Shown here one piece after another: positions 766 to 47,077 of a stretch of DNA of 64,000 nucleotides; position 1 is the stretch's first letter, and every line of letters begins with the position of its first letter. The position numbers were made by a program, and so were the translations under genes. Location: NCBI RefSeq assembly GCF_056712565.1, contig NZ_CM160072.1. One strand, written 5' to 3'. The notes below the pieces were generated by a model. The model ran no database searches, had not been told where the DNA came from, and saw only the letters and a program-made list of their open reading frames with translations.

Positions 766-930
766 GTCTCTCGCCTGGGGTGGAAACGGTTGGCCGCAAT
801 CGCGACACATCATCAGTATTTTGCCGCAGTATAACATGAAGGCGTCTTTGTTGTTATGCAACGGTTGGAGCAGCGTTCACCTGACGCTATACTGCTTCTC
901 TTTCTTATTGCTCAAACTGTCGACATTACT

Positions 931-1722
931 ATGCCCGTTTTTGCTCTGCTCGCGCTTGTCGCCTACTCCGTCAGTCTTGCGCTGATTGTTCCCGGTCTGC
1001 TGCAAAAAAACGGCGGCTGGCGGCGCATGGCTATTATTTCTGCGGTCATCGCGCTGGTCTGCCACGCAATCGCTCTGGAAGCCCGCATCCTGCCCGACGG
1101 TGATAGCGGACAAAACCTCAGCCTGCTGAACGTTGGTTCATTGGTCAGTTTGATGATCTGTACGGTAATGACCATTGTGGCTTCTCGCAATCGTGGCTGG
1201 TTGTTGCTACCCATTGTCTATGCCTTTGCGCTTATCAACCTGGCGCTGGCGACCTTCATGCCCAATGAATACATCACCCATCTGGAAGCAACGCCGGGGA
1301 TGCTGGTGCACATTGGCTTATCGCTTTTTTCCTATGCCACGCTAATTATCGCTGCCCTGTACGCGCTGCAACTGGCGTGGATTGATTACCAACTGAAGAA
1401 CAAGAAGCTGGCGTTTAACCAGGAAATGCCTCCATTGATGAGTATCGAGCGTAAAATGTTCCATATCACGCAGATTGGCGTGGTGCTGCTAACGCTCACT
1501 CTTTGCACTGGCCTGTTCTACATGCACAACTTATTTAGCATGGAAAATATCGACAAGGCCGTGCTCTCTATCGTGGCGTGGTTTGTCTATATTGTGCTGC
1601 TGTGGGGACATTATCATGAAGGATGGCGTGGACGCCGCGTCGTCTGGTTTAACGTTGCGGGTGCAGTCATTCTGACACTGGCCTACTTCGGCAGCCGAAT
1701 TGTCCAGCAGTTAATCAGCTAA
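931..1722 (+). CDS. ypjD: Inner membrane protein YpjD (cytochrome c assembly family)
   Basis: ORF 856..1722; start taken at internal MPVFALLALVAYSV to give the 263-aa product I recall for YpjD; multi-TM hydrophobic sequence. Confidence 0.85.
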   Translation: MPVFALLALVAYSVSLALIVPGLLQKNGGWRRMAIISAVIALVCHAIALEARILPDGDSGQNLSLLNVGSLVSLMICTVMTIVASRNRGWLLLPIVYAFALINLALATFMPNEYITHLEATPGMLVHIGLSLFSYATLIIAALYALQLAWIDYQLKNKKLAFNQEMPPLMSIERKMFHITQIGVVLLTLTLCTGLFYMHNLFSMENIDKAVLSIVAWFVYIVLLWGHYHEGWRGRRVVWFNVAGAVILTLAYFGSRIVQQLIS

Positions 1723-1766
1723 CCCCAGAAAAGGAGTTTCCCCTGGAACACATTTCTACTACTACG

Positions 1767-3029
1767 TTGATCATTATTCTGATCATCATGGTGGTCATTT
1801 CAGCCTATTTTTCCGGTTCAGAAACTGGAATGATGACACTCAACCGCTATCGCCTGAGACACATGGCGAAGCAAGGTAATCGCTCGGCAAAACGCGTCGA
1901 AAAATTACTGCGCAAGCCAGACCGCCTGATAAGCCTGGTGTTAATCGGCAATAATCTGGTCAATATCCTTGCTTCCGCACTCGGCACTATTGTCGGGATG
2001 CGCTTGTATGGCGATGCTGGCGTGGCAATTGCGACTGGCGTGCTGACCTTCGTAGTGCTGGTTTTTGCTGAAGTATTGCCGAAAACCATTGCCGCGCTGT
2101 ACCCGGAAAAAGTCGCTTATCCGAGTAGTTTTCTACTGGCTCCGCTGCAAATTTTGATGATGCCGCTGGTCTGGTTGCTGAATGCTATTACCCGCATGTT
2201 AATGCGCATGATGGGCATCAAAACCGATATCGTGGTTAGCGGCTCTTTAAGCAAAGAAGAGTTGCGTACCATCGTGCACGAATCACGCTCACAAATTTCC
2301 CGTCGCAATCAGGATATGCTGCTGTCGGTGCTCGATCTGGAAAAGATGACCGTCGATGACATCATGGTGCCGCGCAGTGAAATTATCGGTATTGATATCA
2401 ACGATGACTGGAAATCGATTCTGCGCCAACTCTCCCACTCACCTCACGGGCGCATCGTGCTCTACCGTGATTCGCTGGACGACGCCATCAGTATGCTGCG
2501 TGTGCGTGAAGCCTGGCGACTCATGTCGGAGAAAAAAGAGTTCACCAAAGAAACCATGCTACGCGCCGCGGACGAGATCTATTTTGTCCCGGAGGGTACG
2601 CCGCTCAGCACACAGTTGGTGAAGTTTCAGCGCAACAAAAAGAAAGTCGGCCTGGTCGTCAACGAGTATGGAGACATTCAGGGACTGGTGACGGTCGAAG
2701 ATATTCTCGAAGAGATTGTCGGCGATTTCACCACGTCGATGTCGCCAACACTTGCCGAAGAGGTCACGCCGCAAAACGACGGGTCGGTGATTATCGATGG
2801 CACCGCCAACGTGCGAGAAATTAACAAAGCCTTTAACTGGCATCTACCGGAAGATGATGCTCGTACTGTTAACGGCGTCATTCTGGAAGCGCTGGAGGAG
2901 ATCCCGGTAGCAGGCACCCGCGTGCGTATAGGCGAGTACGATATCGATATTCTCGACGTACAGGACAATATGATTAAGCAGGTAAAAGTTTTTCCTGTAA
3001 AACCGCTGCGCGAGAGTGTGGCGGAGTAA
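1767..3029 (+). CDS. yfjD: CNNM/CorB-family transporter YfjD (DUF21 + CBS + CorC_HlyC)
   Basis: 420-aa ORF with N-terminal TM region and C-terminal CBS/CorC-like part; conserved position between ypjD and grpE. True start may lie upstream. Confidence 0.85.
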   Translation: MIIILIIMVVISAYFSGSETGMMTLNRYRLRHMAKQGNRSAKRVEKLLRKPDRLISLVLIGNNLVNILASALGTIVGMRLYGDAGVAIATGVLTFVVLVFAEVLPKTIAALYPEKVAYPSSFLLAPLQILMMPLVWLLNAITRMLMRMMGIKTDIVVSGSLSKEELRTIVHESRSQISRRNQDMLLSVLDLEKMTVDDIMVPRSEIIGIDINDDWKSILRQLSHSPHGRIVLYRDSLDDAISMLRVREAWRLMSEKKEFTKETMLRAADEIYFVPEGTPLSTQLVKFQRNKKKVGLVVNEYGDIQGLVTVEDILEEIVGDFTTSMSPTLAEEVTPQNDGSVIIDGTANVREINKAFNWHLPEDDARTVNGVILEALEEIPVAGTRVRIGEYDIDILDVQDNMIKQVKVFPVKPLRESVAE

Positions 3030-3033
3030 CGAA

Positions 3034-3061
3034 AACGGCCCGGCATTCGCATGCTGGGCCG
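3034..3061. terminator. Hairpin between convergent yfjD and grpE
   Basis: acggccc...gggccgt inverted repeat followed by T-rich run. Confidence 0.3.
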
Positions 3062-3083
3062 TGATTTATTACGAAAGCAGAAA

Positions 3084-3710
<627 letters not shown>

Positions 3711-3799
3711 CTAACTTCGCTTATTATGGGGATCAGTTTCAGGGTTTCAAGGGAAGCACTCACATTGTCATCAATCTTCGCAACAAGGACCTCGGAAAA

Positions 3800-4678
3800 A
3801 TGAATAATCATTTCAAGTGTATTGGCATTGTGGGACACCCACGGCACCCCACTGCACTGACAACACATGAAATGCTCTACCGCTGGCTGTGCACAAAAGG
3901 TTACGAGGTCATCGTTGAGCAACAAATCGCTCACGAACTGCAACTGAAGAATGTGAAAACTGGCACGCTCGCGGAGATTGGGCAACAGGCTGATCTCGCG
4001 GTTGTCGTTGGCGGCGACGGTAATATGCTGGGCGCGGCGCGCACGCTCGCGCGCTATGATATTAAAGTTATTGGAATCAACCGTGGCAACCTGGGTTTCC
4101 TGACTGACCTTGATCCCGATAACGCCCAGCAACAATTAGCCGATGTGCTGGAAGGCCACTACATCAGCGAGAAACGTTTTTTGCTGGAAGCGCAAGTCTG
4201 TCAGCAAGATTGCCAGAAACGCATCAGCACGGCGATTAACGAAGTGGTACTTCACCCTGGCAAAGTGGCGCATATGATTGAGTTCGAAGTGTATATCGAC
4301 GAGATCTTTGCGTTTTCGCAGCGTTCCGATGGACTGATTATTTCGACGCCAACAGGCTCCACCGCATATTCCCTCTCTGCGGGCGGTCCTATTCTGACAC
4401 CCTCTCTGGATGCGATTACCCTGGTGCCCATGTTCCCGCATACGTTGTCAGCACGACCACTGGTCATAAACAGCAGCAGCACGATCCGTCTACGTTTTTC
4501 GCATCGCCGTAACGACCTGGAAATCAGTTGCGACAGCCAGATAGCACTGCCGATTCAGGAAGGTGAAGATGTCCTGATTCGTCGCTGTGATTACCATCTG
4601 AATCTGATTCATCCGAAAGATTACAGTTATTTCAATACATTAAGCACCAAGCTCGGCTGGTCAAAAAAATTATTCTAA
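3800..4678 (+). CDS. nadK: NAD kinase
   Basis: 292 aa, [17 protein letters not shown]...[11 protein letters not shown] motif. Confidence 0.95.
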
Positions 4679-4763
4679 TTTTACGCCAGCCTCTTTACTG
4701 TATATAAAACCAGTTTATACTGTACACAATAACAGTAATGGTTTTTCATACAGGAAAACAACT

Positions 4764-6425
4764 ATGTTGGCACAACTGACCATCAGCAACTTTGCTATCG
4801 TTCGTGAGCTTGAGATTGATTTTCATAGCGGCATGACCGTAATAACTGGCGAGACCGGCGCGGGTAAATCTATTGCAATAGATGCCCTCGGCCTTTGTCT
4901 CGGTGGTCGCGCTGAAGCCGACATGGTGCGTACCGGCGCTGCTCGTGCCGACCTGTGCGCCCGTTTTTCTCTGAAAGATACGCCAGCGGCCCTGCGTTGG
5001 CTGGAAGAAAACCAGCTTGAAGACGGGCATGAATGTTTGCTTCGTCGCGTAATCAGCAGCGATGGTCGCTCCCGTGGTTTCATCAACGGTACAGCTGTTC
5101 CTCTGTCACAACTGCGCGAACTGGGTCAGTTGCTGATTCAGATCCATGGTCAGCACGCTCATCAGTTACTCACCAAACCCGAGCACCAAAAATTCCTGCT
5201 TGATGGCTATGCCAATGAAACCTCTCAGCTCCAGGAAATGACCGCACGTTATCAGTTGTGGCATCAAAGCTGCCGTGACCTCGCGCATCATCAGCAGTTA
5301 AGTCAGGAACGCGCCGCCCGTGCGGAGCTGCTGCAATACCAATTAAAAGAACTTAACGAATTTAATCCGCAGCCTGGAGAGTTTGAGCAAATCGACGAAG
5401 AGTACAAACGTCTGGCGAACAGCGGTCAATTGCTGACCACCAGCCAGAATGCATTGGCATTAATGGCTGACGGTGAAGACGCAAATCTGCAAAGTCAACT
5501 TTACACGGCTAAACAACTGGTGAGCGAATTGATTGGCATGGACAGCAAACTGTCCGGCGTACTTGATATGCTGGAAGAGGCTACCATCCAGATTGCTGAA
5601 GCCAGTGATGAACTACGCCACTACTGCGATCGTCTGGATCTCGATCCCAACCGACTGTTTGAACTTGAACAGCGCATCTCAAAACAGATTTCGCTGGCAC
5701 GTAAACATCACGTCAGCCCTGAGGCATTGCCACAGTATTACCAGTCGCTACTGGAAGAACAGCAGCAACTGGACGATCAGGCCGACTCACAAGAAACGCT
5801 CGCGCTGGCGGTAACGAAACATCATCAGCAGGCACTGGAAACGGCGCGCGCGTTACACCAGCAACGCCAGCATTATGCAAATGAGTTGGCACAGCTGATC
5901 ACCGATAGTATGCATGCACTCTCTATGCCACATGGGCAGTTTACGATCGATGTTAAATTTGACGAGCATCACCTGGGCGCTGACGGCGCTGATCGTATTG
6001 AGTTTCGGGTAACCACCAACCCAGGTCAGCCAATGCAGCCTATTGCCAAAGTCGCATCCGGTGGTGAGTTGTCCCGCATCGCATTGGCAATCCAGGTCAT
6101 TACCGCGCGTAAAATGGAAACCCCGGCACTGATTTTTGATGAAGTGGATGTAGGGATTAGCGGCCCAACAGCGGCAGTTGTCGGCAAACTGCTACGTCAA
6201 CTTGGCGAATCAACTCAGGTGATGTGTGTTACCCACCTGCCACAAGTCGCGGGATGTGGTCATCAACACTATTTTGTCAGCAAAGAAACCGATGGTGCGA
6301 TGACAGAAACGCATATGCAATCCCTGGATAAAAAAGCGCGGTTACAAGAGTTGGCGCGCCTGCTTGGTGGCAGTGAAGTCACACGTAACACACTGGCGAA
6401 TGCGAAAGAACTGCTTGCGGCGTAA
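4764..6425 (+). CDS. recN: DNA repair protein RecN
   Basis: 553 aa, [37 protein letters not shown] Walker A, coiled-coil middle, SMC-like C-terminus. Confidence 0.95.
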
Positions 6426-6573
6426 ACTTTTTTCCTGCTTCACGGTCAGAGTAAACAGCAAAACGCCGTAAGACCGGAAAGCAAAAGGTTTTAAAGTGAT
6501 GAAAGGTCTATTATCATCGGCATATTACAGATGAGCCACGTACTGCTCGGGCCCGAAAAGGAATCAAATCACT

Positions 6574-6915
6574 ATGCGCTGTAAAACGCTGACTGCTGCA
6601 GCAGCAGTACTATTGATGTTGACCGCAGGCTGTTCCACTCTGGAGCGAGTGGTTTACCGTCCTGACATCAACCAGGGGAACTATCTGACCGCTAACGACG
6701 TATCCAAAATACGTGTTGGCATGACGCAACAACAAGTTGCGTACGCATTGGGTACACCGCTGATGTCCGATCCATTTGGTACAAATACCTGGTTCTATGT
6801 CTTCCGCCAGCAACCTGGTCATGAAGGTGTAACGCAGCAAACGCTGACGCTGACCTTTAACAGTAGCGGTGTGTTGACCAACATTGATAACAAACCTGCG
6901 CTGAGTGGTAACTAA
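6574..6915 (+). CDS. bamE: Outer membrane protein assembly factor BamE (SmpA)
   Basis: 113 aa with lipoprotein signal ([11 protein letters not shown]). Confidence 0.9.
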
Positions 6916-6940
6916 TAATAAAGTTGCTCTCAAAGACGTT

Positions 6941-6970
6941 AAAAAAGGTGCTCAATGAGCACCTTTTTTC
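6941..6970. terminator. Bidirectional rho-independent terminator between bamE and ratB
   Basis: aaaaaaggtgctcaatgagcaccttttttc: perfect hairpin flanked by A-run and T-run. Confidence 0.6.
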
Positions 6971-6976
6971 TGTCTG

Positions 6977-7264
6977 TTATTTATTCGCTGATTTTTCTGC
7001 TCGTTGCCTGCGAAGCTCTTTCGGATCGGCAATGAGAGGACGATAAATCTCCACCCGATCGCCATCATGCACAATATCGCTGAGTTTTGCCGGACGGCTG
7101 TAAATGCCGACTTTGTTTTTAGTTAAATCGATATCGGTACGCAATTCCAGCAAACCACTGGCGCGAATAGCTTCTTCAACCGTCGCGCCCTCCTGCAACG
7201 TCACGCGCTGCAGGTACTGCTTCTCAGGTAGCGCATAAGCCACCTCAACGGCAATTTTACCTGG
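6977..7264 (-). CDS. ratB: RatB (YfjF, UPF0125)
   Basis: Translation (V)[26 protein letters not shown]...; probable GTG start, the ORF track extends further upstream. Confidence 0.8.
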
Positions 7265-7733
7265 CACTGTAGACCTCTTTTGCACGAACAGTAAAAGCCT
7301 GCACCATATTAGCTGCCAGCTCTTTAAACACACGACCAAAGGCGAGTTCAATCAACTTATTGGTAAACTCAAAGTCGAGATGAAACTCAATACGGCACGC
7401 GTCCTGGCTCAACGGCGTAAACTTCCAACCGCCGATCAATTTCTTAAACGGTCCATCAACCAGACTCATGAGAATACTTTGATTACTGGTCAACTGGTTG
7501 CGGGTTGTAAACGTTTTGCTGATCCCAGCCTTAGACACATCTACCGCAGCAGTCATCTGCCCAGGAGTGGACTCCAGAATCCGACTTCCGGTACAACCCG
7601 GCAAAAACTGAGGATAAGACTGAACGTCATTCACTAACTGATACATTTGCTCCGCGCTGTAGGGCACCAGTGCGGTCCGGCTAATCTGAGGCATAACAAT
7701 TTCCATCAACAAAAATCCAACAAATAATATCAT
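7257..7733 (-). CDS. ratA: Ribosome association toxin RatA (YfjG, SRPBCC family)
   Basis: 158-aa [50 protein letters not shown]... Confidence 0.9.
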
Positions 7734-7864
7734 TTATCCTGCTGTAAAAAAAACGCTATCCCGGCGCTGGGTAACATCGGGTTCATGCTAAGATAGAGCC
7801 TTGTCCCCCGCAGGATTGATATGGGGTGTTTTCGATTTCAGATTACCGATGATTCACGACGCTT

Positions 7865-8347
7865 ATGACGAAGAAAAAAGCACATAAACCTGGTTCAGCG
7901 ACCATCGCGCTTAACAAGCGCGCCCGTCACGAATACTTTATCGAAGAAGAGTTCGAAGCGGGACTTGCCCTGCAAGGCTGGGAGGTTAAATCCCTGCGCG
8001 CAGGAAAAGCCAATATCAGCGACAGCTATGTCCTTCTGCGCGACGGAGAGGCATTTCTGTTTGGCGCTAACATCACGCCAATGGCTGTGGCCTCCACGCA
8101 TGTGGTGTGCGATCCTACCCGTACCCGCAAGTTACTTCTCAACCAGCGCGAACTGGACTCATTGTACGGTCGCGTCAATCGAGAAGGCTATACCGTAGTG
8201 GCGCTCTCCCTGTACTGGAAAAATGCCTGGTGCAAAGTGAAAATCGGCGTCGCCAAAGGTAAGAAACAGCACGATAAACGTTCAGATATCAAAGAACGCG
8301 AATGGCAGGTGGATAAAGCGCGTATCATGAAAAATGCCCACCGTTAA
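7865..8347 (+). CDS. smpB: SsrA-binding protein SmpB
   Basis: 160 aa, [51 protein letters not shown]... Confidence 0.95.
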
Positions 8348-8561
8348 ACCTATATAAGCGATACTAATCAAATCCTCACCGCGCCTCCCTATCCGGTGGC
8401 GCGAATGAACATCTTATCGACTGTCAAATCTGACACAGATGTAGCCATCCCATTGCTTAATCGAAAAAAAATCATACTATGCAGGCGCTAATTCCAGGAT
8501 GATAACGCCTTTTGGGCTAGTCATGCTGCTCATAAATCTGGTATACTTACCGTTACACATT

Positions 8562-8924
8562 GGGGCTGATTCTGGATTCGACGGGATTTGCGAAACCCAA
8601 GGTGCATGCCGAGGGGCGGTTGGCCTCGTAAAAAGCCGCAAAAAATAGTCGCAAACGACGAAAACTACGCTTTAGCAGCTTAATAACCTGCTTAGAGCCC
8701 TCTCTCCCTAGCCTCCGCTCTTAGGACGGGGATCAAGAGAGGTCAAACCCAAAAGAGATCGCGTGGAAGCCCTGCCTGGGGTTGAAGCGTTAAAACTTAA
8801 TCAGGCTAGTTTGTTAGTGGCGTGTCCGTCCGCAGCTGGCAAGCGAATGTAAAGACTGACTAAGCATGTAGTACCGAGGATGTAGGAATTTCGGACGCGG
8901 GTTCAACTCCCGCCAGCTCCACCA
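8562..8924 (+). ncRNA. ssrA: tmRNA (SsrA, 10Sa RNA)
   Basis: Begins GGGGCTGATTCTGGATTCGACGGGATTTGCGAAACCCAAGGTGCATGCC, contains tag-peptide coding region, ends ...GGTTCAACTCCCGCCAGCTCCACCA; 363 nt. Confidence 0.95.
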
Positions 8925-9085
8925 ATCATGATTGGACGGTGTAAGGACAACACCAACAAAAACAGGAAGTTAGAAGTCTCAGCAGGACACCGACCAGACG
9001 GTGAGGAGACATAAAAGGATACGCAAAGGAGCCGCGGCTCCGAAGTGAAATGAAAGCCCGCTGATGCGGGCTTTTTTGCTTCTTC
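8898..9085 (+). repeat. attL: ssrA 3' core (cgggttcaactcccgccagc) plus ~170 bp similar to the attR copy
   Basis: Near-identical to 53357..53540 by direct comparison, including the terminator hairpin aaagcccgctgatgcgggctttttt. Confidence 0.7.
9055..9077 (+). terminator. Rho-independent terminator downstream of ssrA
   Basis: agcccgctgatgcgggct hairpin followed by TTTTTT. Confidence 0.6.
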
Positions 9086-9452
9086 TCTTTAGCCTGATTC
9101 GACACTCTCAATGCGGCCATAAACAACAACCCACTTTTCTTATACCGTAGCCTGTCCCCCTCTTCCTGCTTTCTAACCATAACAGATGTGAGCGTTTGCT
9201 ATGAGCGATATATAGTCATTCGTACCCTCCGATACTAATCATCACAGAAATTAATATATTCATTCCTTACTGAAAAGCTATGAAGTAGATATATAGGATT
9301 GGGGCGCGTATGGCACTGGACAGTTATGCATCTCCGAATATTATTCCGGAGCTAAGACAACTAGACTGGCCCCCTGAATCTCCAGACAACCAATATCACT
9401 TATTTAAGTGATAGTCTTAATACTAGTTTTTAGACTAGTCATTGGAGAGCAG

Positions 9453-9818
9453 ATGATTGATGTCTTAGGACCGGAGAAACGCAGACGGCGTACCACACAG
9501 GAAAAGATCGCAATTGTTCAGCAGAGCTTTGAACCAGGGATGACGGTCTCCCTCGTTGCCCGGCAACATGGTGTAGCAGCCAGCCAGTTATTTCTCTGGC
9601 GTAAGCAATACCAGGAAGGAAGTCTTACTGCTGTCGCCGCCGGAGAACAGGTTGTTCCTGCCTCTGAACTTGCTGCCGCCATGAAGCAGATTAAAGAACT
9701 CCAGCGCCTGCTCGGCAAGAAAACGATGGAAAATGAACTCCTCAAAGAAGCCGTTGAATATGGACGGGCAAAAAAGTGGATAGCGCACGCGCCCTTATTG
9801 CCCGGGGATGGGGAGTAA
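9453..9818 (+). CDS. insC: IS2 transposase OrfA (InsC)
   Basis: [56 protein letters not shown]... Confidence 0.85.
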
Positions 9819-10681
9819 GCTTAGTCAGCCGTTGTCTCCGGGTGTCGCGTGCGCAGTTGCACGTCATTCTCAGACGAACCGATGACTGGATGGATGGCCG
9901 CCGCAGTCGTCACACTGATGATACGGATGTGCTTCTCCGTATACACCATGTTATCGGAGAGCTGCCCACGTATGGTTATCGTCGGGTATGGGCGCTGCTT
10001 CGCAGACAGGCAGAACTTGATGGTATGCCTGCGATCAATGCCAAACGTGTTTACCGGATCATGCGCCAGAATGCGCTGTTGCTTGAGCGAAAACCTGCTG
10101 TACCGCCATCGAAACGGGCACATACAGGCAGAGTGGCTGTGAAAGAAAGTAATCAGCGATGGTGCTCTGACGGGTTCGAGTTCCGCTGTGATAACGGAGA
10201 AAAACTGCGAGTCACGTTCGCGCTGGACTGCTGTGACCGTGAGGCACTGCACTGGGCGGTCACTACGGGCGGCTTCAACAGTGAAACAGTACAGGACGTC
10301 ATGCTGGGAGCGGTGGAACGCCGCTTCGGCAACGAGCTTCCGGCGTCTCCAGTAGAGTGGCTGACGGATAATGGTTCATGCTACCGGGCTAATGAAACAC
10401 GGCAGTTTGCCCGGATGTTGGGGCTTGAACCGAAGAGCACGGCGGTGCGGAGTCCGGAGAGTAACGGCATAGCAGAGAGCTTCGTGAAAACGATAAAGCG
10501 TGACTACATCAGTGTCATGCCCAAACCAGACGGGTTAACGGCAGCAAAGAACCTTGCAGAGGCGTTCGAGCATTATAACGAATGGCATCCGCATAGTGCA
10601 CTGGGTTATCGCTCGCCACGGGAATATCTACGGCAGCAAGCCAGTAATGGGTTAAGTGATAACAGGTGTCTGGAAATATAG
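9776..10681 (+). CDS. insD: IS2 transposase OrfB (InsD), DDE integrase-like catalytic domain
   Basis: 301 aa overlapping orfA in another frame (frameshift fusion arrangement typical of IS3 family). Confidence 0.9.
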
Positions 10682-10839
10682 GGGCAAATCCAACAACCGA
10701 ATGCCGCAGCAGGTAAGATCACGCTAGGGGGGCTGGACAGAATGGCTGTTACGCCCAGTGTGAAGAAAAGAAGGCTAAGTATGGTAGAATTTCCATACGC
10801 ACAGACCTTGTTATCCGACTATACAGCCTGGAAGGCACT

Positions 10840-11628
10840 ATGACAAATCTACAACTGGAAGAAAGATTTAGGGCGCTTGAGAAAGATTACGATGCGCTCA
10901 TTTCCACAAAATATACTGCGCAGAACGTTCTCACTCACACTATGGAAACCTATGTTGATTCTGGTAAATATAAAAACTGGATCGCCAGAGTGAAAAAGTT
11001 AATAGAGGACAGCTACGGAAAAGAGTCTGATTATTACAATGACTTCAATACTGTAAACAGCAGGTGGTCTTCTAATTACAATACACTGATCAAAAGTTAT
11101 AAACCGTTGTTTGATGCGGCGAGAGATGATCTTGCGCACTCTGCTGTCAGTACTAATACTCCTCAAGAAGGTTCGCCGCTGAGCCTCGTACTTAATATTC
11201 TTAACAGGTTTCCGACCTTTGTTCGCCAGTTAAAGAGGCGGTACAACGGCCGTGCGCCGCTTGAAGTTAATGATGAGTATGACGTACAGGATTTGATTTA
11301 TGCACTGCTGACGCTTCATTTTAATGATATTAGGGCGGAAGAGTATACCCCCAGCTTTGCGGGCGCGGCCTCAAGACAGGACTTTCTTTTGAAAAAAGAG
11401 AAAATTGTGATAGAGGTGAAGAAAACCCGTGAATCTCTGGGAGCGGGTAAAGTTGGTGGAGAGTTGCTTATTGATATGGCGCGCTACCGCGCTCACCAAG
11501 ACTGCGATACGTTGATCTTGTTTGTATATGACCCGGATTGCTACATAAATAATCCTTTGGGCGTGAAAACCGATCTGGAATCTAAAGACGCGGAAGGAAA
11601 AGTGAAGGTTGTTATTGCGCAGTTCTGA
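10840..11628 (+). CDS. Hypothetical protein, helical N-terminus and possible PD-(D/E)xK nuclease-like C-terminus; defence candidate
   Basis: 262-aa ORF; C-terminal D...(D/E)xK-like motifs (DVQDLIYALL ... KEKIVIEVKKTRE); no family recognised; lies in the accessory islet. Confidence 0.5.
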   Translation: MTNLQLEERFRALEKDYDALISTKYTAQNVLTHTMETYVDSGKYKNWIARVKKLIEDSYGKESDYYNDFNTVNSRWSSNYNTLIKSYKPLFDAARDDLAHSAVSTNTPQEGSPLSLVLNILNRFPTFVRQLKRRYNGRAPLEVNDEYDVQDLIYALLTLHFNDIRAEEYTPSFAGAASRQDFLLKKEKIVIEVKKTRESLGAGKVGGELLIDMARYRAHQDCDTLILFVYDPDCYINNPLGVKTDLESKDAEGKVKVVIAQF

Positions 11629-11663
11629 CACGCTTAAGTGTCACCTTACAGGATTAGGTTTGC

Positions 11664-11709
11664 GGCCGTGCCAGCAGGACGAGCATGAAAAAGGCCGCTG
11701 GCACGGCCG
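11664..11709. terminator. Long hairpin between convergent ORFs
   Basis: cggccgtgccagc ... gctggcacggccg, 13-bp perfect inverted repeat. Confidence 0.4.
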
Positions 11710-11715
11710 GATTTG

Positions 11716-12009
11716 TCATCTTTGCCAGGTCAAATCAAAATCTACGTGAAAATCCGCAGGCTTAAGCTCGCAACTGCCACCACGCCCAATTAACGACGTT
11801 ATGTTTACAACGTTTGAACCTGTTGAGATGGCAAGTTGAGTGTCATCTGTAAACGTGATGATTAGCATTTCAGTCTGATGAACCTGTACTCCAGTTTTCT
11901 GAAAACCAATCTGGACAGATTTCACCGTTTTCCCAACCATTTCACGGGCTTGATTGATAGAGTAATTAGCTTCAACTTGTAGGTCATTCCTGAACTTGGG
12001 TAGTGTCAT
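11716..12009 (-). CDS. Small hypothetical protein (97 aa), downstream partner of the GIY-YIG gene
   Basis: ORF co-oriented with and downstream of 12220..13026; no recognisable motif. Confidence 0.45.
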   Translation of the reverse strand: MTLPKFRNDLQVEANYSINQAREMVGKTVKSVQIGFQKTGVQVHQTEMLIITFTDDTQLAISTGSNVVNITSLIGRGGSCELKPADFHVDFDLTWQR

Positions 12010-12219
12010 TTTACATCCTCTTTAGTGAAGTTTTCGCTATTTAAATCAGCAGCATTCCTTTTAAATCACTGGCATGTCAGCAGTGGATAGTCTGAGTGTA
12101 ACGTCCAGTGAGGGGAATAAATATTGGTCAGACTTTGCACAAAAGAGCCAACTATCGCGGGCTCTCTCTCATCATGTGCGAAAATTGACCACAATATGAA
12201 ATCCAGTTCCATTCCGAAA

Positions 12220-13044
<825 letters not shown>

Positions 13045-13152
13045 TCAATTGACAACTTATAATCCCTACTAGTTAGCATTATGATTTCCAGAGTGAGGAA
13101 TATAAAAATCTCTGTTTCTGGCACATAACAGCCCTTAAGATCGTAGCTCGCC

Positions 13153-13200
13153 ATCATGGGGTGTCGGGGGGCGGAGGTTCAAATCCTCTCGTGCCGACCA
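13153..13200 (+). other. Truncated tRNA 3' fragment (T-arm, acceptor, CCA), tRNA-Pro-like
   Basis: catggggtgtcggggggcggaggttcaaatcctctcgtgccgacca resembles the 3' half of tRNA-Pro as recalled; no matching 5' half upstream; followed by hairpin + T-run at 13215-13240. Confidence 0.55.
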
Positions 13201-13441
13201 AAAATCCCTTAAGAACCAGCCTATTATGGCTGGTTTTTTTATGATTGTTTTTTATGCGGAGAAATACCGGGGAATAATTGGGGTAAAACACCTTTAGGCT
13301 ATTCACTTAGCCTACCACCATCAAAATCTTTCCGAATGTATCCATCTCTTTTTTCTTATGCAGCTAAAACGAAGTCTTGATACTGTTTATTTACACAGAT
13401 AAGAATAATACTGTCTACAAACGCAGTACAAAAGAAGTGTT

Positions 13442-13620
13442 ATGCGTATTGAGATCTCCATAGCCAAAGACAAAATGACCAAATGCCAAACGGCGCTGTG
13501 GACGCGTTAAAGGAAGAATTAACCCAACACATTGGCAAGCGTTATGACGATGTGGAGATGATCGTAAAAGCCACCAGCAACGATAGTTTTTCAGTTAGAC
13601 ATACTGCAGATAAAGATTGA
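13442..13620 (+). pseudogene. DinI-like protein, frameshifted and C-terminally truncated
   Basis: Frame 1 [14 protein letters not shown] then stop; shifted frame continues [37 protein letters not shown], matching the DinI-family pattern MRIE..IAK...LP.GA.DAL..EL. Confidence 0.5.
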
Positions 13621-14044
13621 GCTAAAACTTTCGTTCAGGAAACTCTGAATGATACCTGAGAGTCTACTGAAGAGTTGTTTGTTCACTAGTTAGCACGTAG
13701 GAAATCATTCAATACTCGCACTATCGGAAGTTCACCAGCCAGTCGTAGCACGTCCTTGCAAACGACGTGCCTACGGTTTCAATCACCTCTCACCATCAAT
13801 TCTATCAATAATAATTAAACAGCGCCTAGACAAAATAAATAACAACAAGTCAACAACCTCGACAGGATGCCGATGGGATGATGAAGAGATAAGAAAGAAT
13901 AACCAGTAAAGCCCTAAAACGTCAGCGTTCAGACGCGTTTTTTACTTAATCGGTAACAAATACGTTGTATCATAGCAAAATAAAATGATTGTTCTAAATC
14001 AGATTAACTCCTCACTTTTGTACAATGTCGCTTACAGGTATACC

Positions 14045-15934
14045 ATGAAATCCGAGACGCTAACTGTCCAACAACTTTTTCAAGACCGCCGACAATACTG
14101 TGTTCCATTCTATCAACGTGCCTATGTATGGACTCAGCAAGACCAGTGGTCAGCTCTACTGGAGGATATCCTAGAGAAAGTACAATCCCGGCTCTCGGGT
14201 ACAAAACCAACTCCCCATTTCCTTGGTGCGGTTGTACTGGAACCTCAATCAAAAAAAGGATTATTAGGTGTAGATTCCATACATATTATTGATGGTCAGC
14301 AACGATTGACCACTCTTCAATATGTTCTGGCATCCATCCGATTAGCATTACGTGCTACGGATCTTTCCAGCTTAGAGGCTCTCATTTCGCCTTGCCTGAA
14401 AAACTCAAACGAAGACACAATGCGAAATAAAGAAGTAGAACGCTTCAAACTGTGGCCAACTTTTCGGGATCAAACTCATTTTATTCAAAGTTTTAATGTT
14501 GAAAATATTGACGATCTCCGGGACGTATTCTCTGATAGTTTCACGCAGCATGGTACGTTGCGTAAGCATTTTAATCACCCGCCATCACTAGAAGCATTAT
14601 GTTTTTTTACTGAAGCCTTTATAAAATGGATTAAAATAGAAAACCACTCACCACAAGAAAATGCTGTAGCTCTAATTGAGGCTGTCTTAACAGATCTGAA
14701 ACTGGTAAGCATATTTCTCGAAGCTGAAGATGATGCCCAAATAATTTTTGAAACATTAAATGGGCGAGGGGCGGAACTTCATGCTACGGATCTTATTCGC
14801 AACTATATCTTTATGTGCGCTGAGCATGAAAATATTAATGCTATTGAATTATATGAAAATGAGTGGAAGAGCTTTGAAGATAAATACTGGTCGGAAAAAC
14901 AACGCCGTGGACGTATTAATAAACCACGCATGGAGTGGCTAGTACATGCGACATTGCAATCAGAAAGGCAACGTGAAATTGATCTGTCTCGCCTTTACAA
15001 TGAGTATCGTGATTATGTAAGTAAGGACTTGTCTTCACAACGAGCAGATCTGCAAGTAAAGCGCCTCAAACAATATGCATCACAATATAAAGAATTGGTT
15101 GATGGTTTTGGCACAACCCCCATCTCACACTTTGGATATCGCATCGCAGACTATGATGTGACGACACTTTATCCGCTTGCTTTGTTCATTTCGATAGCTA
15201 ACATCGCTGATGATGAGAAAGCAGCCATGTATAATGATCTTGTCTCCTACGTAGTACGAAGAGCCGTATGTGGCCTGACGCCAAAGAATTACAACAATGT
15301 ATTTATGAATGTATTGCGGCACTTGGCTAAAACGGAAATTTCCAGTGTTGAGTTACGTAATATCCTCAATAACTTAAATGGCGAAGCCTCACGTTGGCCT
15401 GGTGACTCAGAATTTCTCAACGCTTGCATCAATGCTCCACTTTATCCTGGCAGGCTCGACGCACCGAAAATGCGCTCAATGTTAACGGAACTTGAAAGAG
15501 AACTTTGTCGCCAAGTAAAGACAGAAAAGCCTGATGTTCCAAATCTTTCTAATCTCGATATCGATCATCTTATGCCTCAAAGTTGGTATTCCTGTTGGCC
15601 TCTCGAAAATGGTCGTATGGTGACAAATTCAGATGCTACGGTATTGAACCAAATTGTTCTGTCTGGAACCGATCTTACCCCTGAACAGCTACTGGTAAGG
15701 AAACGGCAACAAGCGATATCTACTTTGGGAAATCTAACTTTGCTTAACCTTAGCGTAAACCGTTCTGTTCAGAATGCTGTATTTCTGAAAAAACGTGATG
15801 CTCTCATCGTCCACACCAATCTACGACTGAACATTCCACTTATAGTTAAGGATAAATGGGATGAGGATGAAATCCTGGAGCGGGGTAAAAAGTTGGGGGA
15901 AATTGCATTGAAAGTATGGCCAAAACACGATTAA
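14045..15934 (+). CDS. Type IV restriction endonuclease, GmrSD-like (N-terminal DUF262/ParB-like, C-terminal DUF1524/HNH-like)
   Basis: N-terminal DGQQRLTTL motif; C-terminal DIDHLMPQSW...N motif; start taken at MKSETLTVQQLF; AT-rich gene. Confidence 0.75.
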   Translation: MKSETLTVQQLFQDRRQYCVPFYQRAYVWTQQDQWSALLEDILEKVQSRLSGTKPTPHFLGAVVLEPQSKKGLLGVDSIHIIDGQQRLTTLQYVLASIRLALRATDLSSLEALISPCLKNSNEDTMRNKEVERFKLWPTFRDQTHFIQSFNVENIDDLRDVFSDSFTQHGTLRKHFNHPPSLEALCFFTEAFIKWIKIENHSPQENAVALIEAVLTDLKLVSIFLEAEDDAQIIFETLNGRGAELHATDLIRNYIFMCAEHENINAIELYENEWKSFEDKYWSEKQRRGRINKPRMEWLVHATLQSERQREIDLSRLYNEYRDYVSKDLSSQRADLQVKRLKQYASQYKELVDGFGTTPISHFGYRIADYDVTTLYPLALFISIANIADDEKAAMYNDLVSYVVRRAVCGLTPKNYNNVFMNVLRHLAKTEISSVELRNILNNLNGEASRWPGDSEFLNACINAPLYPGRLDAPKMRSMLTELERELCRQVKTEKPDVPNLSNLDIDHLMPQSWYSCWPLENGRMVTNSDATVLNQIVLSGTDLTPEQLLVRKRQQAISTLGNLTLLNLSVNRSVQNAVFLKKRDALIVHTNLRLNIPLIVKDKWDEDEILERGKKLGEIALKVWPKHD

Positions 15935-16029
15935 TGCAATTAATAAAATGATTATAGTGGCCTTACATTAGTAAGGCCGCTACTCACTATTAAATACTTT
16001 AATTTGCATCAAGAACAGCAGTGTCAGCC

Positions 16030-45135: not shown

Positions 45136-45202
45136 TGTACCTCAGGTGTACATATTACATGATTGAAATGAACCTTCAAGATACTTGTACCTTAACGGTA
45201 CA
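45136..45202. promoter_or_regulatory. OR-like operator region: two copies of TGTACC-N5-(G/T)GTACA between cro and cI
   Basis: tgtacctcaggtgtaca (45136-45152) and tgtaccttaacggtaca (45186-45202). Confidence 0.5.
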
Positions 45203-45219: not shown

Positions 45220-45894
45220 ATGAAAACAATCCATGACATCCGGCGGTCTAACGCCAGAAAACTGAGAGATGGTGTTGGCGGGAATTCTTCCTTTGCCACT
45301 ATGATTGATCGCGAGCCAACCCAGACCAGCAGGTTTATGGGAGATGGTGCTACTAAAAATATCGGTGACAGCATGGCACGACACATCGAAAAATGTTTCG
45401 ACCTGCCTGTCGGATGGCTCGATCAAGAACACCAGACAACGAACATCACAAAAAAACCTGATGTTTCAATCACTAATAAACAAATCACATTAGTCCCTGT
45501 CATATCATGGGTACAGGCCGGAGCATGGAAAGAAGTTGGATATTCTGAGGTTGATTTGAGCACAGCAGAAACGTATCCCTGCCCTGTACCCTGTGGGGAA
45601 ATGACTTATATCTTGCGGGTGATAGGTGATTCAATGATTGATGAGTACCGCCCGGGAGACATGATTTTTGTCGATCCTGAAGTACCTGCCTGCCACGGTG
45701 ACGACGTTATTGCATTGATGCACGATACAGGTGAAACCACCTTCAAAAGGTTGATAGAAGATGGGACACAGCGTTATCTCAAAGCGTTAAACCCAAACTG
45801 GCCTGAGCCTTACATTAAGATCAACGGTAATTGCTCTATAATTGGTACTGTGATTTTCTCAGGAAAACCAAGAAGATACAAAATCAAAGCCTAA
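45220..45894 (+). CDS. CI-like repressor (HTH + S24 LexA-like autopeptidase domain)
   Basis: 224 aa; C-terminal RVIGDSMIDEYRPGDMIFVDPE ... TFKRL gives Ser/Lys dyad. Confidence 0.8.
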   Translation: MKTIHDIRRSNARKLRDGVGGNSSFATMIDREPTQTSRFMGDGATKNIGDSMARHIEKCFDLPVGWLDQEHQTTNITKKPDVSITNKQITLVPVISWVQAGAWKEVGYSEVDLSTAETYPCPVPCGEMTYILRVIGDSMIDEYRPGDMIFVDPEVPACHGDDVIALMHDTGETTFKRLIEDGTQRYLKALNPNWPEPYIKINGNCSIIGTVIFSGKPRRYKIKA

Positions 45895-45933: not shown

Positions 45934-45966
45934 TTGACAATGTACCTTTGGGATACATAATGTACC
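45934..45966 (+). promoter_or_regulatory. pL/OL-like promoter with overlapping operator
   Basis: TTGACA-N16-CATAAT overlapping tgtacctttgggataca (same consensus as OR sites) plus an extra tgtacc half-site. Confidence 0.4.
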
Positions 45967-46096
45967 CAAGAGAAACAACAAACAGGCAGGACGCCCACGA
46001 AGTAGCCGCCTGGGGCATATGAAGTCCAGGATGATTCGTTAGCAACAAAAAAGCGCCCTATAGGACGCTTCGCTCTTTAACAATCTGGATGACTTA

Positions 46097-46609
46097 TTAC
46101 TCAGATTTGAACTTTGGTTCTGGCAAAAGAGGAGGAGTTGAGTCCTCGAATCGTAGCCAGTGCTCCCAGATATCGTGGGATTGTAATTCCAGAAGACCAA
46201 TTTGACGTGATGCAACTGCAGTGCCAGCTATAGTTCCTCCTGCATAATCAACCTGGACGGACTTTGACGCTTTCTCAATTAATTCTGTCCAAGCTTCACT
46301 TTCCGCGTTAAAAGAAGCAGTTAATTCCTGCAGACGCTGTGGATCATCCTTGTTGTCTTGTTTCAAACGATTCAGGGCGGCCACCGAATACTTATTCTTA
46401 ACCCAACTAACCTGAGCTAACTGAACTCTCTGACAAGCGTCCATATCAGTAGTTGTTTCCTGAGGCATATCAAAGCAGGAAATAAAAAAAGTCTCAACAC
46501 CATCATTTAGACTACTGCTCGGCTGGTTCAAAGCATCAGAAGCATTGGATGCTATCGGTATTATCAGTGCTACCGACAGAATCAAACGTTTAACATAAAT
46601 CGCTCCCAT
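46097..46609 (-). CDS. Secreted hypothetical protein (signal peptide), moron
   Basis: 170 aa; N-terminal KRLILSVALIIPIASNA signal peptide; opposite strand to flanking early genes. Confidence 0.5.
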   Translation of the reverse strand: MGAIYVKRLILSVALIIPIASNASDALNQPSSSLNDGVETFFISCFDMPQETTTDMDACQRVQLAQVSWVKNKYSVAALNRLKQDNKDDPQRLQELTASFNAESEAWTELIEKASKSVQVDYAGGTIAGTAVASRQIGLLELQSHDIWEHWLRFEDSTPPLLPEPKFKSE

Positions 46610-46895
46610 TTAATTATCCCCTCTAAGAACAGAGTCATCCAGATTAGCCGAATCCTTGTTGTTGGGGAATAACCAGGCCCACCTCGCCTGATGTGGCTAA
46701 AAGCAGGCACATAACAGCTAAGTATTTTCAACCAGAGAGAATCCTTAGCGTTGTGGTGAATGCGGCTCAGCGCACGCGGGTTAAGGTTGAGGCTGACAGT
46801 CGACCTTCTGTGGATACCCACCCGCCTGGTGTGCAACCTTCGCCAGGCACCGGGAGGCACCCGGCACCACAACTTTATGCTGTGTGTAGTCCTGG

Positions 46896-47029
46896 CGGTA
46901 CCAGCTTGTACCCTTGCTTCCGGCTGGTACCGCTCTTTTTACAAAACAGAGAAGAGCATCACCGGACGACGGGCTCATAACCCAATCCACCCGGGCGGCT
47001 GCCACCGCAGGTGTTCTTCTCTGTTTTGT
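46896..47029 (+). promoter_or_regulatory. GC-rich structured leader with two long perfect inverted repeats upstream of the yfdP-like gene
   Basis: cggtaccagc(46896-46905)/gctggtaccg(46923-46932) and acaaaacagagaaga(46941-46955)/tcttctctgttttgt(47015-47029). Confidence 0.45.
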
Positions 47030-47077
47030 GGAGAAACCAACCGACCTTGCAGGGTCGATATGATGAGGAGCAGCAAA

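What the first reader, a model, noticed from the sequence alone, without database searches (positions are those of the whole stretch)
46097..46609. Secreted moron protein encoded antisense to the leftward early transcript
A 170-aa protein with a clear Sec signal peptide is encoded on the strand opposite to the pL-like transcription, between the immunity region and the yfdP-like genes. It could be a lysogenic conversion factor (periplasmic inhibitor or exclusion protein).
Basis: partly seen in the sequence, partly recalled or inferred. Interest (0 to 1): 0.35.

Follow-up and report, generated by a model that had tools for sequence, protein, structure and literature searches.

The report
Prophage-encoded periplasmic DUF1311-fold cargo protein
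A resident virus in pathogenic E. coli carries an unannotated exported protein that is a diverged member of the DUF1311/LprI family, some of whose members bind cell-wall-cutting enzymes, so it may protect the host cell envelope, but its target is untested.

Summary
Window 46097-46609 (-) is a real 170-aa gene (WP_000500990.1, "hypothetical" in every source). It is under purifying selection (dN/dS 0.1-0.2). It has a canonical Sec signal peptide, a Shine-Dalgarno sequence and its own terminator. It lies antisense, just downstream of a repressor-controlled pL-like promoter in an e14-like prophage of E. coli S88/APEC O1-type strains.

The most likely role is a periplasmic, immunity-like binder of an incoming peptidoglycan-cleaving enzyme, either an interbacterial muramidase toxin or a phage lysin. 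This is inferred from family precedents only. No toxin gene is adjacent, no consensus promoter was found, and expression is unproven.

The gene occupies a swappable single-gene slot. At least seven other cargo genes occur there in other E. coli. The DUF1311 cassette and three others with the same borders are bracketed by a conserved inverted repeat, next to a boxA-like element and an STnc100-like sRNA.

Verdict: new member of a known kind, of modest interest.

The parts
46097..46609 (-). CDS of the 170-aa cargo protein (WP_000500990.1), a diverged DUF1311/LprI-fold protein
46541..46609 (-). Codons 1-23: Sec signal peptide (n MGAIYVKR, h LILSVALIIPIA, c SNA; predicted cleavage A23|S24)
   Evidence: Rule-based analysis. 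The design is conserved in orthologues. pLDDT is below 50 for residues 1-24.
46618..46623 (-). Shine-Dalgarno GAGGGG, 8 nt before the ATG
   Evidence: Read directly from the sequence.
46050..46071 (-). Intrinsic terminator of the cargo gene (9-bp stem, then TTTTTTGTT). It is part of the conserved backbone shared by the other cargos that have the same cassette borders.
   Evidence: Terminator scan. Conserved in loci with other cargos.
46082..46105 (.). Promoter-distal arm of the inverted repeat that brackets the cassette (outer 12 bp AATCTGGATGAC are perfect)
   Evidence: the repeat finder: 24 nt, 79% complementary, with 516 nt between the arms. The 12-mer occurs only at these two places in the 64 kb. 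It is 13/13 conserved in Klebsiella and 12/12 in E. albertii prophages.
46622..46645 (.). Promoter-proximal arm of the same inverted repeat. It covers the 5' leader up to the Shine-Dalgarno sequence.
   Evidence: The arm closes the predicted mRNA in both MFE and centroid folds if it is transcribed.
46641..46669 (-). Weak candidate promoter TTCCCC-17-TAATCT (C just upstream of the -10), inside the conserved leader
   Evidence: My own PWM scan scores it 5.8. This is below the mean best score of shuffles (7.3), so it is not significant. The leader is conserved across three species.
45934..45977 (+). pL-like promoter TTGACA-16-CATAAT with two operator-like palindromes (oL)
   Evidence: Promoter scan gives 11/12 matches. 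My PWM score of 13.3 is the best in the region. The operator repeats are shared with the cro/cI intergenic region.
46071..46083 (+). boxA-like element CGCTCTTTAACAA on the pL-sense strand, directly after the hairpin
   Evidence: It is the only exact copy in the window. About 0.002 exact copies are expected by chance (my calculation). The resemblance to the rrn/lambdoid boxA is from my own knowledge.
46720..46942 (+). STnc100-like prophage sRNA element, ending in a terminator. It overlaps the ymfH-like ORF that PGAP calls 'frameshifted'.
   Evidence: Rfam RF02076: 45.4 bits (gathering score 47), E 1e-8, full-length model match. STnc100/PasD are described as prophage sRNAs in bioRxiv 10.64898/2026.05.13.724894.

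Best explanation
The gene encodes a soluble periplasmic protein of about 16 kDa and pI 4.6, with the DUF1311/LprI fold.

Proposed mechanism, step by step:
- The protein is made from a single-gene cargo slot of an e14-like lambdoid prophage while the prophage is repressed (inferred).
- It is exported by Sec and cleaved after Ala23 (inferred from sequence rules).
- It is stabilised by the one retained, invariant cysteine pair, Cys45-Cys59 (inferred).
- In the periplasm it acts as an immunity-like binding protein. It neutralises a peptidoglycan-cleaving glycosidase that reaches the periplasm from outside (inferred from family precedents).
- The most likely target is a lysozyme-like toxin delivered by competing bacteria. 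That would make it an 'orphan immunity' gene carried by a phage.
- When the prophage is induced, transcription from pL runs through the gene in antisense and should shut it off (inferred).

Shown here: the gene, its selection, its export signal features, its fold and family, and its position and orientation.

Inferred, not shown: expression in the lysogen, the disulfide, and the target.
For: Family and fold:
- A profile built from 8 close homologues, none Pfam-positive, found 242 cluster representatives.
- 59 of 61 sampled match PF07007.
- hhalign against 54 Pfam-positive relatives gives 99.9% probability, E 1.6e-33.
- A family profile hits 3gi7 by sequence at E 9e-6.

Family precedents:
- The DUF1311 protein Etsi4 rescues E. 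coli from the periplasmic toxicity of the cell-wall effector Etse4 (PMC12981562).
- LprI-domain orphan immunity genes sit next to lysozyme-like T6SS effectors in Pantoea (PMC9796082). They also flank WHIX effectors (PMC12135965).
- ScwA is periplasmic and controls levels of the lytic transglycosylase MltD (PMC7933661).
- Transposon insertions in the Pseudomonas DUF1311 gene PA3021 are depleted under beta-lactam exposure (PMC7038268).

Compartment: signal peptide features. Cys45 and Cys59 are invariant in all 61 aligned relatives.

Lysogen-type placement:
- The gene is antisense to pL/oL with its own terminator.
- It sits in the same slot in K. variicola and E. albertii prophages.
- One distant relative, P0043, lies in an array of small genes that includes an SMI1_KNR4 immunity-type gene.
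Against: - No toxin or effector gene is adjacent here. None is adjacent at any of the six homologue loci with interpretable flanks that I inspected. Cognate pairing, the usual mark of an immunity gene, is therefore absent.
- The clade has lost two of the four cysteines typical of its closest DUF1311 relatives.
- It shows no pairwise similarity to Etsi4.
- Inhibition by a single-domain DUF1311 protein rests on one co-expression rescue. The ScwA mutant showed no lysozyme phenotype (PMC7933661).
- No consensus sigma-70 promoter lies upstream, and I have no expression data.
- PADLOC and NCBIfam give nothing.
Confidence: 0.35

Rival explanations
1. Superinfection exclusion at the entry step. The periplasmic protein binds the wall-piercing lysozyme or transglycosylase of an incoming phage, as T4 Spackle inhibits gp5, or otherwise blocks DNA entry, as P1 Sim does. 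The lysogen is thereby protected from other phages.
For: - The gene sits in the classic place for lysogen-expressed exclusion genes, next to the repressor and antisense to pL.
- The slot holds many alternative small genes, as phage defence hot spots do.
- The protein has a periplasmic helical fold with one disulfide pair.
- The family is linked to muramidases (PMC12981562, PMC7933661).
- The Spackle and Sim precedents are from my own knowledge.
Against: - PADLOC finds nothing.
- No relative occurs in 50,697 sequenced phage genomes or in BFVD.
- Chromosomal and plasmid orphan copies exist outside prophages.
Confidence: 0.15
2. A modulator of the host's own wall-remodelling enzymes, like Salmonella ScwA, which raises MltD levels. 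It would change envelope properties, lysis timing or virulence rather than block a foreign enzyme.
For: - ScwA is the only single-domain enterobacterial LprI-family protein studied genetically. It is periplasmic, depends on disulfides, and changes MltD and other hydrolase levels (PMC7933661).
- PA3021 insertions sensitise Pseudomonas to beta-lactams (PMC7038268).
- Many relatives lie in housekeeping contexts, one of them two genes from an SLT transglycosylase gene.
Against: - ScwA is 275 aa with a different architecture: its LprI domain is C-terminal and it has four cysteines.
- E. coli's own DUF1311 protein YecT is not a close relative.
- It is unclear why a phage would carry such a regulator in a swappable slot.
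Confidence: 0.15
3. An inhibitor of animal lysozyme, as the Pfam name suggests, helping extraintestinal pathogenic strains survive in serum, egg white or phagocytes.
For: - The Pfam name and the M. tuberculosis LprI report (cited in PMC7933661 and PMC12981562).
- The listed carriers include strains named as extraintestinal or avian pathogens, such as S88, APEC O1 and ExPEC XM.
- The protein is periplasmic.
Against: - LprI also has an MliC domain, which is reported to be sufficient for inhibition. The ScwA mutant had no lysozyme phenotype (PMC7933661).
- The fold here is a helical bundle. Only a sub-threshold PF07007 match was found, and nothing of the MliC, PliC or Ivy type.
Confidence: 0.07
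4. The gene product has no role in the lysogen, or has a role unrelated to peptidoglycan. DUF1311 would then be a generic periplasmic helical scaffold, and the gene would simply be carried along in the slot.
For: - No promoter was found.
- Every source calls it hypothetical.
- The biochemistry of DUF1311 is unsettled. The only solved structure, 3gi7, is annotated 'unknown function'.
Against: - Purifying selection acts across three genera.
- The signal peptide design and the C-terminal motif are conserved.
- The gene is retained intact in 141 of 5426 complete E. coli genomes.
Confidence: 0.25

Closest known systems
DUF1311 / LprI family (Pfam PF07007); solved example PDB 3gi7 (PP0307 of Pseudomonas putida)
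   Same: - The N-terminal C-x13-C pair and T53, Y74, W107 and G125 are conserved.
- It is an exported protein.
- It shares the C-terminal W..WL.Y.DSTPPxLPEP tail with a large subgroup of the family.
   Different: - It is below Pfam's gathering score (17.3 vs 22 bits).
- The second cysteine pair is lost.
- It has an extra N-terminal beta-hairpin (residues 31-43), predicted to pair with the C-terminal strand 164-169.
- It is carried by prophages.
[not shown]
   Same: - Small exported proteins that are weak or sub-threshold PF07007 matches. Etsi4 scores 18.7 bits.
- They are proposed or shown to neutralise periplasm-acting cell-wall effectors (PMC12981562, PMC9796082).
   Different: - Those genes sit beside their effector in T6SS islands. 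This one has no effector neighbour.
- There is no detectable pairwise similarity to Etsi4.
ScwA (SL1344_0490) of Salmonella Typhimurium
   Same: A periplasmic, disulfide-containing LprI-domain protein, horizontally acquired and restricted to some enterobacteria (PMC7933661).
   Different: ScwA is 275 aa with its LprI domain at the C-terminus and four cysteines. It is chromosomal. It affects MltD levels and showed no lysozyme phenotype.
Lambdoid 'morons' and lysogen-expressed genes next to the repressor (lambda rexAB, sieB; HK97-type morons)
   Same: - An extra gene that is absent from otherwise similar phages.
- It has its own terminator and deviant base composition.
- It lies beside cI/oL.
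   Different: - It is encoded antisense to pL rather than in the cI or pL operon.
- The cassette is bracketed by a conserved inverted repeat.
- Only the ORF plus ribosome-binding site is exchanged, between a shared leader and a shared terminator.
T4 Spackle (periplasmic inhibitor of the gp5 tail lysozyme)
   Same: A small, helical, Sec-exported, phage-encoded protein with a disulfide. This is a functional analogy recalled from my own knowledge.

Membership tests
DUF1311 / LprI (PF07007) | Match to the Pfam model at or above the gathering score | tested here: not met
   17.3 bits against a cut-off of 22, E 0.006, covering residues 50-137 against profile positions 8-96 of 106.
DUF1311 / LprI (PF07007) | Homology demonstrable by profile methods to bona fide members | tested here: met
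   - A profile of 8 close homologues retrieves 242 representatives.
- 59 of 61 sampled are PF07007-positive.
- hhalign gives 99.9% probability, E 1.6e-33.
- A family profile hits 3gi7 at E 8.7e-6.
DUF1311 / LprI (PF07007) | Helical-bundle fold of the solved member 3gi7 | tested here: met
   [not shown]
DUF1311 / LprI (PF07007) | Conserved cysteines (four in the closest subgroup) | tested here: inconclusive
   Cys45 and Cys59 are invariant. The third and fourth cysteines, invariant in the 54 Pfam-positive relatives, are replaced in this clade.
T6SS immunity protein to a peptidoglycan glycosidase effector | Encoded next to its cognate effector | tested here: not met
   No effector is adjacent in the window. 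None is adjacent at the homologue loci with interpretable flanks. Compare Etsi4 beside Etse4.
T6SS immunity protein to a peptidoglycan glycosidase effector | Located in the compartment where the toxin acts (the periplasm) | tested here: met
   Sec signal peptide features. No experiment was done.
T6SS immunity protein to a peptidoglycan glycosidase effector | Binds and neutralises the effector | not testable with these tools
   This needs co-expression rescue, competition assays or a complex structure.
Proteinaceous lysozyme inhibitors (Ivy, MliC/PliC, PliG, PliI) | Ivy or MliC/PliC-type domain | tested here: not met
   [not shown]
Proteinaceous lysozyme inhibitors (Ivy, MliC/PliC, PliG, PliI) | Inhibits lysozyme in vitro | not testable with these tools
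   This needs an enzyme assay with the purified mature protein.
Moron (extra transcription unit in a lambdoid phage genome) | Present in some but absent from otherwise closely related phages | tested here: met
   Prophages with the identical YmfK repressor carry ECs1072-family, WP_000559922.1 or YmfI genes instead. Only 141 of 1984 genomes that match the flanks carry this cargo.
Moron (extra transcription unit in a lambdoid phage genome) | Own terminator | tested here: met
   A 9-bp G+C-rich stem plus a T run at 46071..46050 (-).
Moron (extra transcription unit in a lambdoid phage genome) | Own promoter, active in the lysogen | tested here: inconclusive
   The best sigma-70-like site on the - strand scores below the shuffle mean. 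The leader is highly conserved. No expression data are available.
Moron (extra transcription unit in a lambdoid phage genome) | Base composition different from its neighbours | tested here: met
   G+C is 0.435, against 0.486 and 0.476 in the flanks and 0.50 for the whole window.
T4 Spackle-type superinfection exclusion | Homology to Spackle | tested here: inconclusive
   [not shown]

The most novel reading that the evidence does not exclude
The antisense position between oL/pL and the STnc100-like sRNA in e14-like prophages may be a dedicated 'plug-in' expression slot.

- Single-gene cassettes (ORF plus ribosome-binding site) are exchanged between a fixed leader and a fixed terminator.
- In the four cargo types that share the inner borders, each cassette carries its own terminal inverted repeat. 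The arms differ in sequence between cargos but stay complementary.
- The repeat could be the recombination handle of a mobile cassette. It could also be a long-range RNA stem that closes the cargo mRNA, or one that loops the cargo out of the pL transcript next to boxA.
- The DUF1311 cassette would then be a phage-delivered orphan immunity gene against muramidase toxins.
Probability: 0.15. Interest if true: 0.65.

Novelty: new member of a known kind. Interest (0 to 1): 0.38.

Why it matters
- It gives a family and fold assignment to a protein that RefSeq, UniProt and PHROGs (phrog_7681) all list as unknown. The protein is present in about 2.6% of complete E. coli genomes, including well-studied meningitis and avian-pathogenic strains.
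- If the immunity-like role is correct, a temperate phage would supply its host with protection against wall-degrading toxins of competitors or against other phages. That would be a simple, testable case of lysogenic conversion acting in the periplasm.
- The DUF1311 family is large and poorly understood. A phage-borne orphan copy that can be moved into E. coli K-12 would be a convenient handle on its function.
- The cassette slot with its inverted repeat may show how lambdoid phages swap accessory genes.

Tried and rejected
Searches that found nothing useful:
- tblastn against 50,697 phage genomes: no match.
- BFVD viral structures: nothing significant.
- NCBIfam and PADLOC: nothing.
- PDB sequence search with the close-homologue profile: nothing below E 0.3.
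- Literature search for WP_000500990: no paper.
- AFDB50 fold search: the library was unavailable.
Repeating it with A1 gave only close relatives of 65-100% identity.

Ideas rejected:
- Copy of the host's own DUF1311 gene yecT. Rejected: hhalign probability is 0.2%.
- Close relative of the T6SS immunity protein Etsi4. Rejected: no pairwise similarity.
- Lipoprotein or Tat substrate. Rejected: no lipobox cysteine and no twin-arginine motif.
- Invertible segment. I considered this because one locus has an annotated + strand ORF in the slot. Rejected: those loci carry the start of the same antisense cargo gene as L051, and I saw no case of one cassette in both orientations.
- Integron-like attC site or an IS terminal repeat. 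I saw no convincing match, judging by eye and from memory. Left open.

Checks that were negative or inconclusive:
- A consensus sigma-70 promoter for the gene was not found.
- A second boxA (nutR) near the cro-like gene was not found.
- Literature on ymfI expression in e14 gave only a distant RpoH SELEX peak inside xisE.

Not attempted:
- I did not model a complex with candidate partners.

Full report
**1. The observation**

Window 46097..46609 on the - strand is an ATG-initiated ORF of 170 codons.
- The DNA is 100% identical to E. coli S88, APEC O1, ATCC 11775, MS7163 and others, where the gene is WP_000500990.1, 'hypothetical protein'.
- Every public source calls it hypothetical or uncharacterised. 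The exact protein occurs on at least 1000 contigs.
- It is a real gene. dN/dS against the orthologues in Klebsiella variicola and Escherichia albertii is 0.11-0.21. It matches phrog_7681 (unknown function) end to end.
- A GAGGGG Shine-Dalgarno sequence lies 8 nt before the ATG.
- A strong intrinsic terminator follows the stop codon at 46071..46050.
- G+C is 43.5%, against 48-50% around it.

**2. The export signal**

SignalP was not available, so I applied the classical rules.
- The n-region MGAIYVKR is basic. The h-region LILSVALIIPIA has 12 hydrophobic residues. The c-region is S-N-A, followed by an acidic mature N-terminus.
- There is no lipobox cysteine and no twin-arginine motif.
- Orthologues with quite different leaders keep the same design.
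- AlphaFold is unconfident for exactly residues 1-24.
- The mature protein would be 146 aa with pI 4.6.
- I treat export as well supported but not proven.

**3. The setting**

The window holds an e14-like lambdoid prophage with contractile-tail genes, inserted beside glaH.
- The immunity region reads: ymfL, ymfT (cro-like, -), ymfK (cI-like LexA-family repressor, 45220..45894, +).
- After the repressor's terminator comes a near-consensus promoter, TTGACA-16-CATAAT, at 45934..45961 (+).
- That promoter is overlapped by TGTACC-N5-GGTACA palindromes. The same palindromes stand between the cro-like and cI-like genes. This is a pL/oL unit.
- Its transcripts run in the + direction, through the terminator hairpin of our gene, and past an exact boxA-like 13-mer, CGCTCTTTAACAA (46071..46083). 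This is the only copy in the 64 kb. The resemblance to boxA is from my own knowledge.
- They then run antisense through the whole ORF, into an STnc100-like sRNA element (46720..46942; Rfam 45.4 bits against a gathering score of 47), and on to yfdP, yfdQ, yfdR and the integrase gene.

**4. What the protein is**

Pfam gives only a sub-threshold hit to PF07007 (LprI/DUF1311): 17.3 bits against 22. I tested this lead independently.
- (a) Close homologues are few and confined to E. coli, E. albertii and Klebsiella.
- (b) A profile of eight of them, none Pfam-positive, searched against 1.84 billion representatives found 242 proteins. Of 61 sampled, 59 are PF07007-positive.
- (c) hhalign between the clade and 54 Pfam-positive relatives gives 99.9% probability, E 1.6e-33.
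- (e) A family profile reaches 3gi7 by sequence, E 9e-6.

The protein is thus a diverged DUF1311 member.
- Within the family it belongs to a subgroup with a striking C-terminal tail, W..WL.Y.DSTPPxLPEP.
- Its own small clade differs in two ways. It has lost the third and fourth cysteines, which are invariant in the 54 closest Pfam-positive relatives. It has gained an N-terminal beta-hairpin that the model pairs with the C-terminal strand.
- It is not a copy of E. coli yecT.
- It has no pairwise similarity to Etsi4.

**5. What the family does**

- The name 'lysozyme inhibitor' comes from M. tuberculosis LprI. LprI also carries an MliC domain, which is reported to be sufficient for inhibition. 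The Salmonella LprI-domain protein ScwA is periplasmic and depends on disulfides, shows no lysozyme phenotype, and raises MltD levels (PMC7933661).
- In E. coli O157:H7 the DUF1311 protein Etsi4 rescues cells from the periplasmic toxicity of the cell-wall effector Etse4 (PMC12981562).
- LprI-domain genes are found as cognate or orphan immunity genes next to lysozyme-like T6SS effectors in Pantoea (PMC9796082). They also flank WHIX effectors (PMC12135965).
- Insertions in Pseudomonas PA3021 (DUF1311) are depleted under beta-lactams (PMC7038268).
- The common thread is periplasmic interaction with enzymes that cut the glycan strands of peptidoglycan.

**6. Contexts of relatives**

- The 71%- and 65%-identical orthologues sit in the same slot of Klebsiella and E. 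albertii prophages, with different repressors.
- More distant clade members are lone genes on chromosomes or on a plasmid-like contig. One lies near DinI, IS and umuDC genes. One lies next to an S24 repressor and a lysis cassette.
- None has a toxin neighbour.
- Wider relatives are in housekeeping contexts. One is in an array of small genes that includes an SMI1_KNR4 immunity-type gene.
- The family is absent from sequenced phage genomes and from BFVD. IMG/VR holds 24 loci, all close relatives.

**7. Most likely mechanism**

I commit to this reading: a Sec-exported, soluble, immunity-like binder that neutralises a peptidoglycan glycosidase arriving from outside.
- It would be made in the lysogen and silenced by convergent pL transcription on induction.
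- The most likely targets are interbacterial muramidase toxins. This is the family precedent.
- The next most likely are lysins of incoming phages. This is the phage-biology precedent: T4 Spackle and P1 Sim, both from my own knowledge.
- A ScwA-like effect on host enzymes and inhibition of animal lysozyme are less likely.
- Confidence is moderate to low (0.35), because the target, the expression and even the biochemical activity of single-domain DUF1311 proteins are not established.

**8. The slot (beyond the finding)**

- Of 1984 E. coli genomes that match the flanks, only 141 carry this gene. Others carry unrelated genes in the same slot:
  - the ECs1072 family protein;
  - WP_000559922.1, a coiled-coil protein with two CxxC motifs;
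  - YmfI in e14 of K-12;
  - WP_000357060.1, WP_000159356.1 and WP_000141752.1.
- All of these lack a signal peptide.
- For the group that includes this gene, homology to other cargos stops at 46088-46090 and resumes at 46637-46639. Only the ORF plus ribosome-binding site is exchanged, between a shared leader and a shared terminator.
- A second group of cargos, including e14 ymfI, has wider borders at about 46040 and 46679 and lacks the repeat.
- The cassette is bracketed by an inverted repeat at 46082-46105 / 46622-46645. It is 24 nt and 79% complementary, and the outer 12 bp are perfect. That 12-mer occurs nowhere else in the window.
- The repeat is perfectly conserved in the Klebsiella (13/13) and E. 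albertii (12/12) prophages, although the coding DNA there has diverged to about 78-83% identity. It is absent around the chromosomal orphan copies.
- Other cargos with the same borders have their own arms. The inner sequence differs, but the arms remain complementary: 20 nt at 75% in L012 and 26 nt at 85% in L013.
- If the 5' arm is transcribed, it closes the whole mRNA in both MFE and centroid folds.
- The weak candidate -10 (TAATCT, 46646-46641) would place the RNA start inside the arm. The two ideas therefore conflict, and the repeat remains unexplained.

**9. Verdict**

The protein is a new, diverged, prophage-borne member of a known but poorly understood family. Interest is modest. The slot architecture is the more unusual feature and deserves a separate look.

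Noticed in passing
window 46082-46105 and 46622-46645: An inverted repeat brackets the cargo cassette. The outer 12 bp, AATCTGGATGAC, are perfect and unique in the 64 kb. The repeat is perfectly conserved in Klebsiella and E. albertii prophages. It is replaced by different but still complementary arms around other cargo genes. Its function is unknown: a recombination handle, or a long-range RNA stem.
   Followed up: partly
window 46040-46680; loci L012, L013, L014, L046-L051: The antisense position between oL/pL and the ymfH-like region is a cargo-swap slot. At least seven other unrelated small genes occupy it in other E. coli prophages, some with the identical YmfK repressor. There are two sets of cassette borders: 46090/46637 and 46040/46679.
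   Followed up: partly
window 46720-46942 (+): A full-length match to Rfam STnc100 (a prophage sRNA related to PasD), just under the gathering score (45.4 vs 47 bits, E 1e-8), ending in a terminator. It overlaps the ymfH-like ORF (46753-47063). RefSeq marks that ORF 'frameshifted' in every one of the seven non-K-12 loci I inspected where it is annotated. This suggests the region may be an RNA gene rather than a decayed protein gene.
   Followed up: partly
window 46071-46083 (+): An exact boxA-like 13-mer, CGCTCTTTAACAA, lies about 110 nt downstream of the pL-like promoter, directly after the hairpin that serves as the cargo terminator on the other strand. No second copy was found near the cro-like gene, and no obvious N gene.
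   Followed up: partly
window 45136-45152, 45186-45202, 45941-45957, 45961-45977: Operator-like palindromes TGTACC-N5-GGTACA define oR (between the cro-like ymfT and the cI-like ymfK) and oL (over the pL-like promoter).
   Followed up: yes
window 46633-46715 (-): The roughly 85-nt leader upstream of the cargo is almost invariant between E. coli, E. albertii and K. variicola. It is more conserved than the coding sequence. It contains a small hairpin (GCCAC-N10-GTGGC) and a CTGGTTATTCCCCAACAAC motif that recurs at the cassette ends of other cargos.
   Followed up: partly
window about 1-16000 (S88 2822122-2838300): Left of the e14-like prophage lies a P2-like prophage remnant: CI, integrase, a frameshifted replication endonuclease, and Fil. 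It is followed by genes typical of defence islands: PD-(D/E)XK nuclease, GIY-YIG and DUF262.
   Followed up: no
locus L011 6001-10283: A 35%-identical clade member lies next to an S24-type repressor and a holin-holin-amidase lysis cassette in an unidentified bacterium. This is a second, independent association of the clade with phage-like immunity regions.
   Followed up: no
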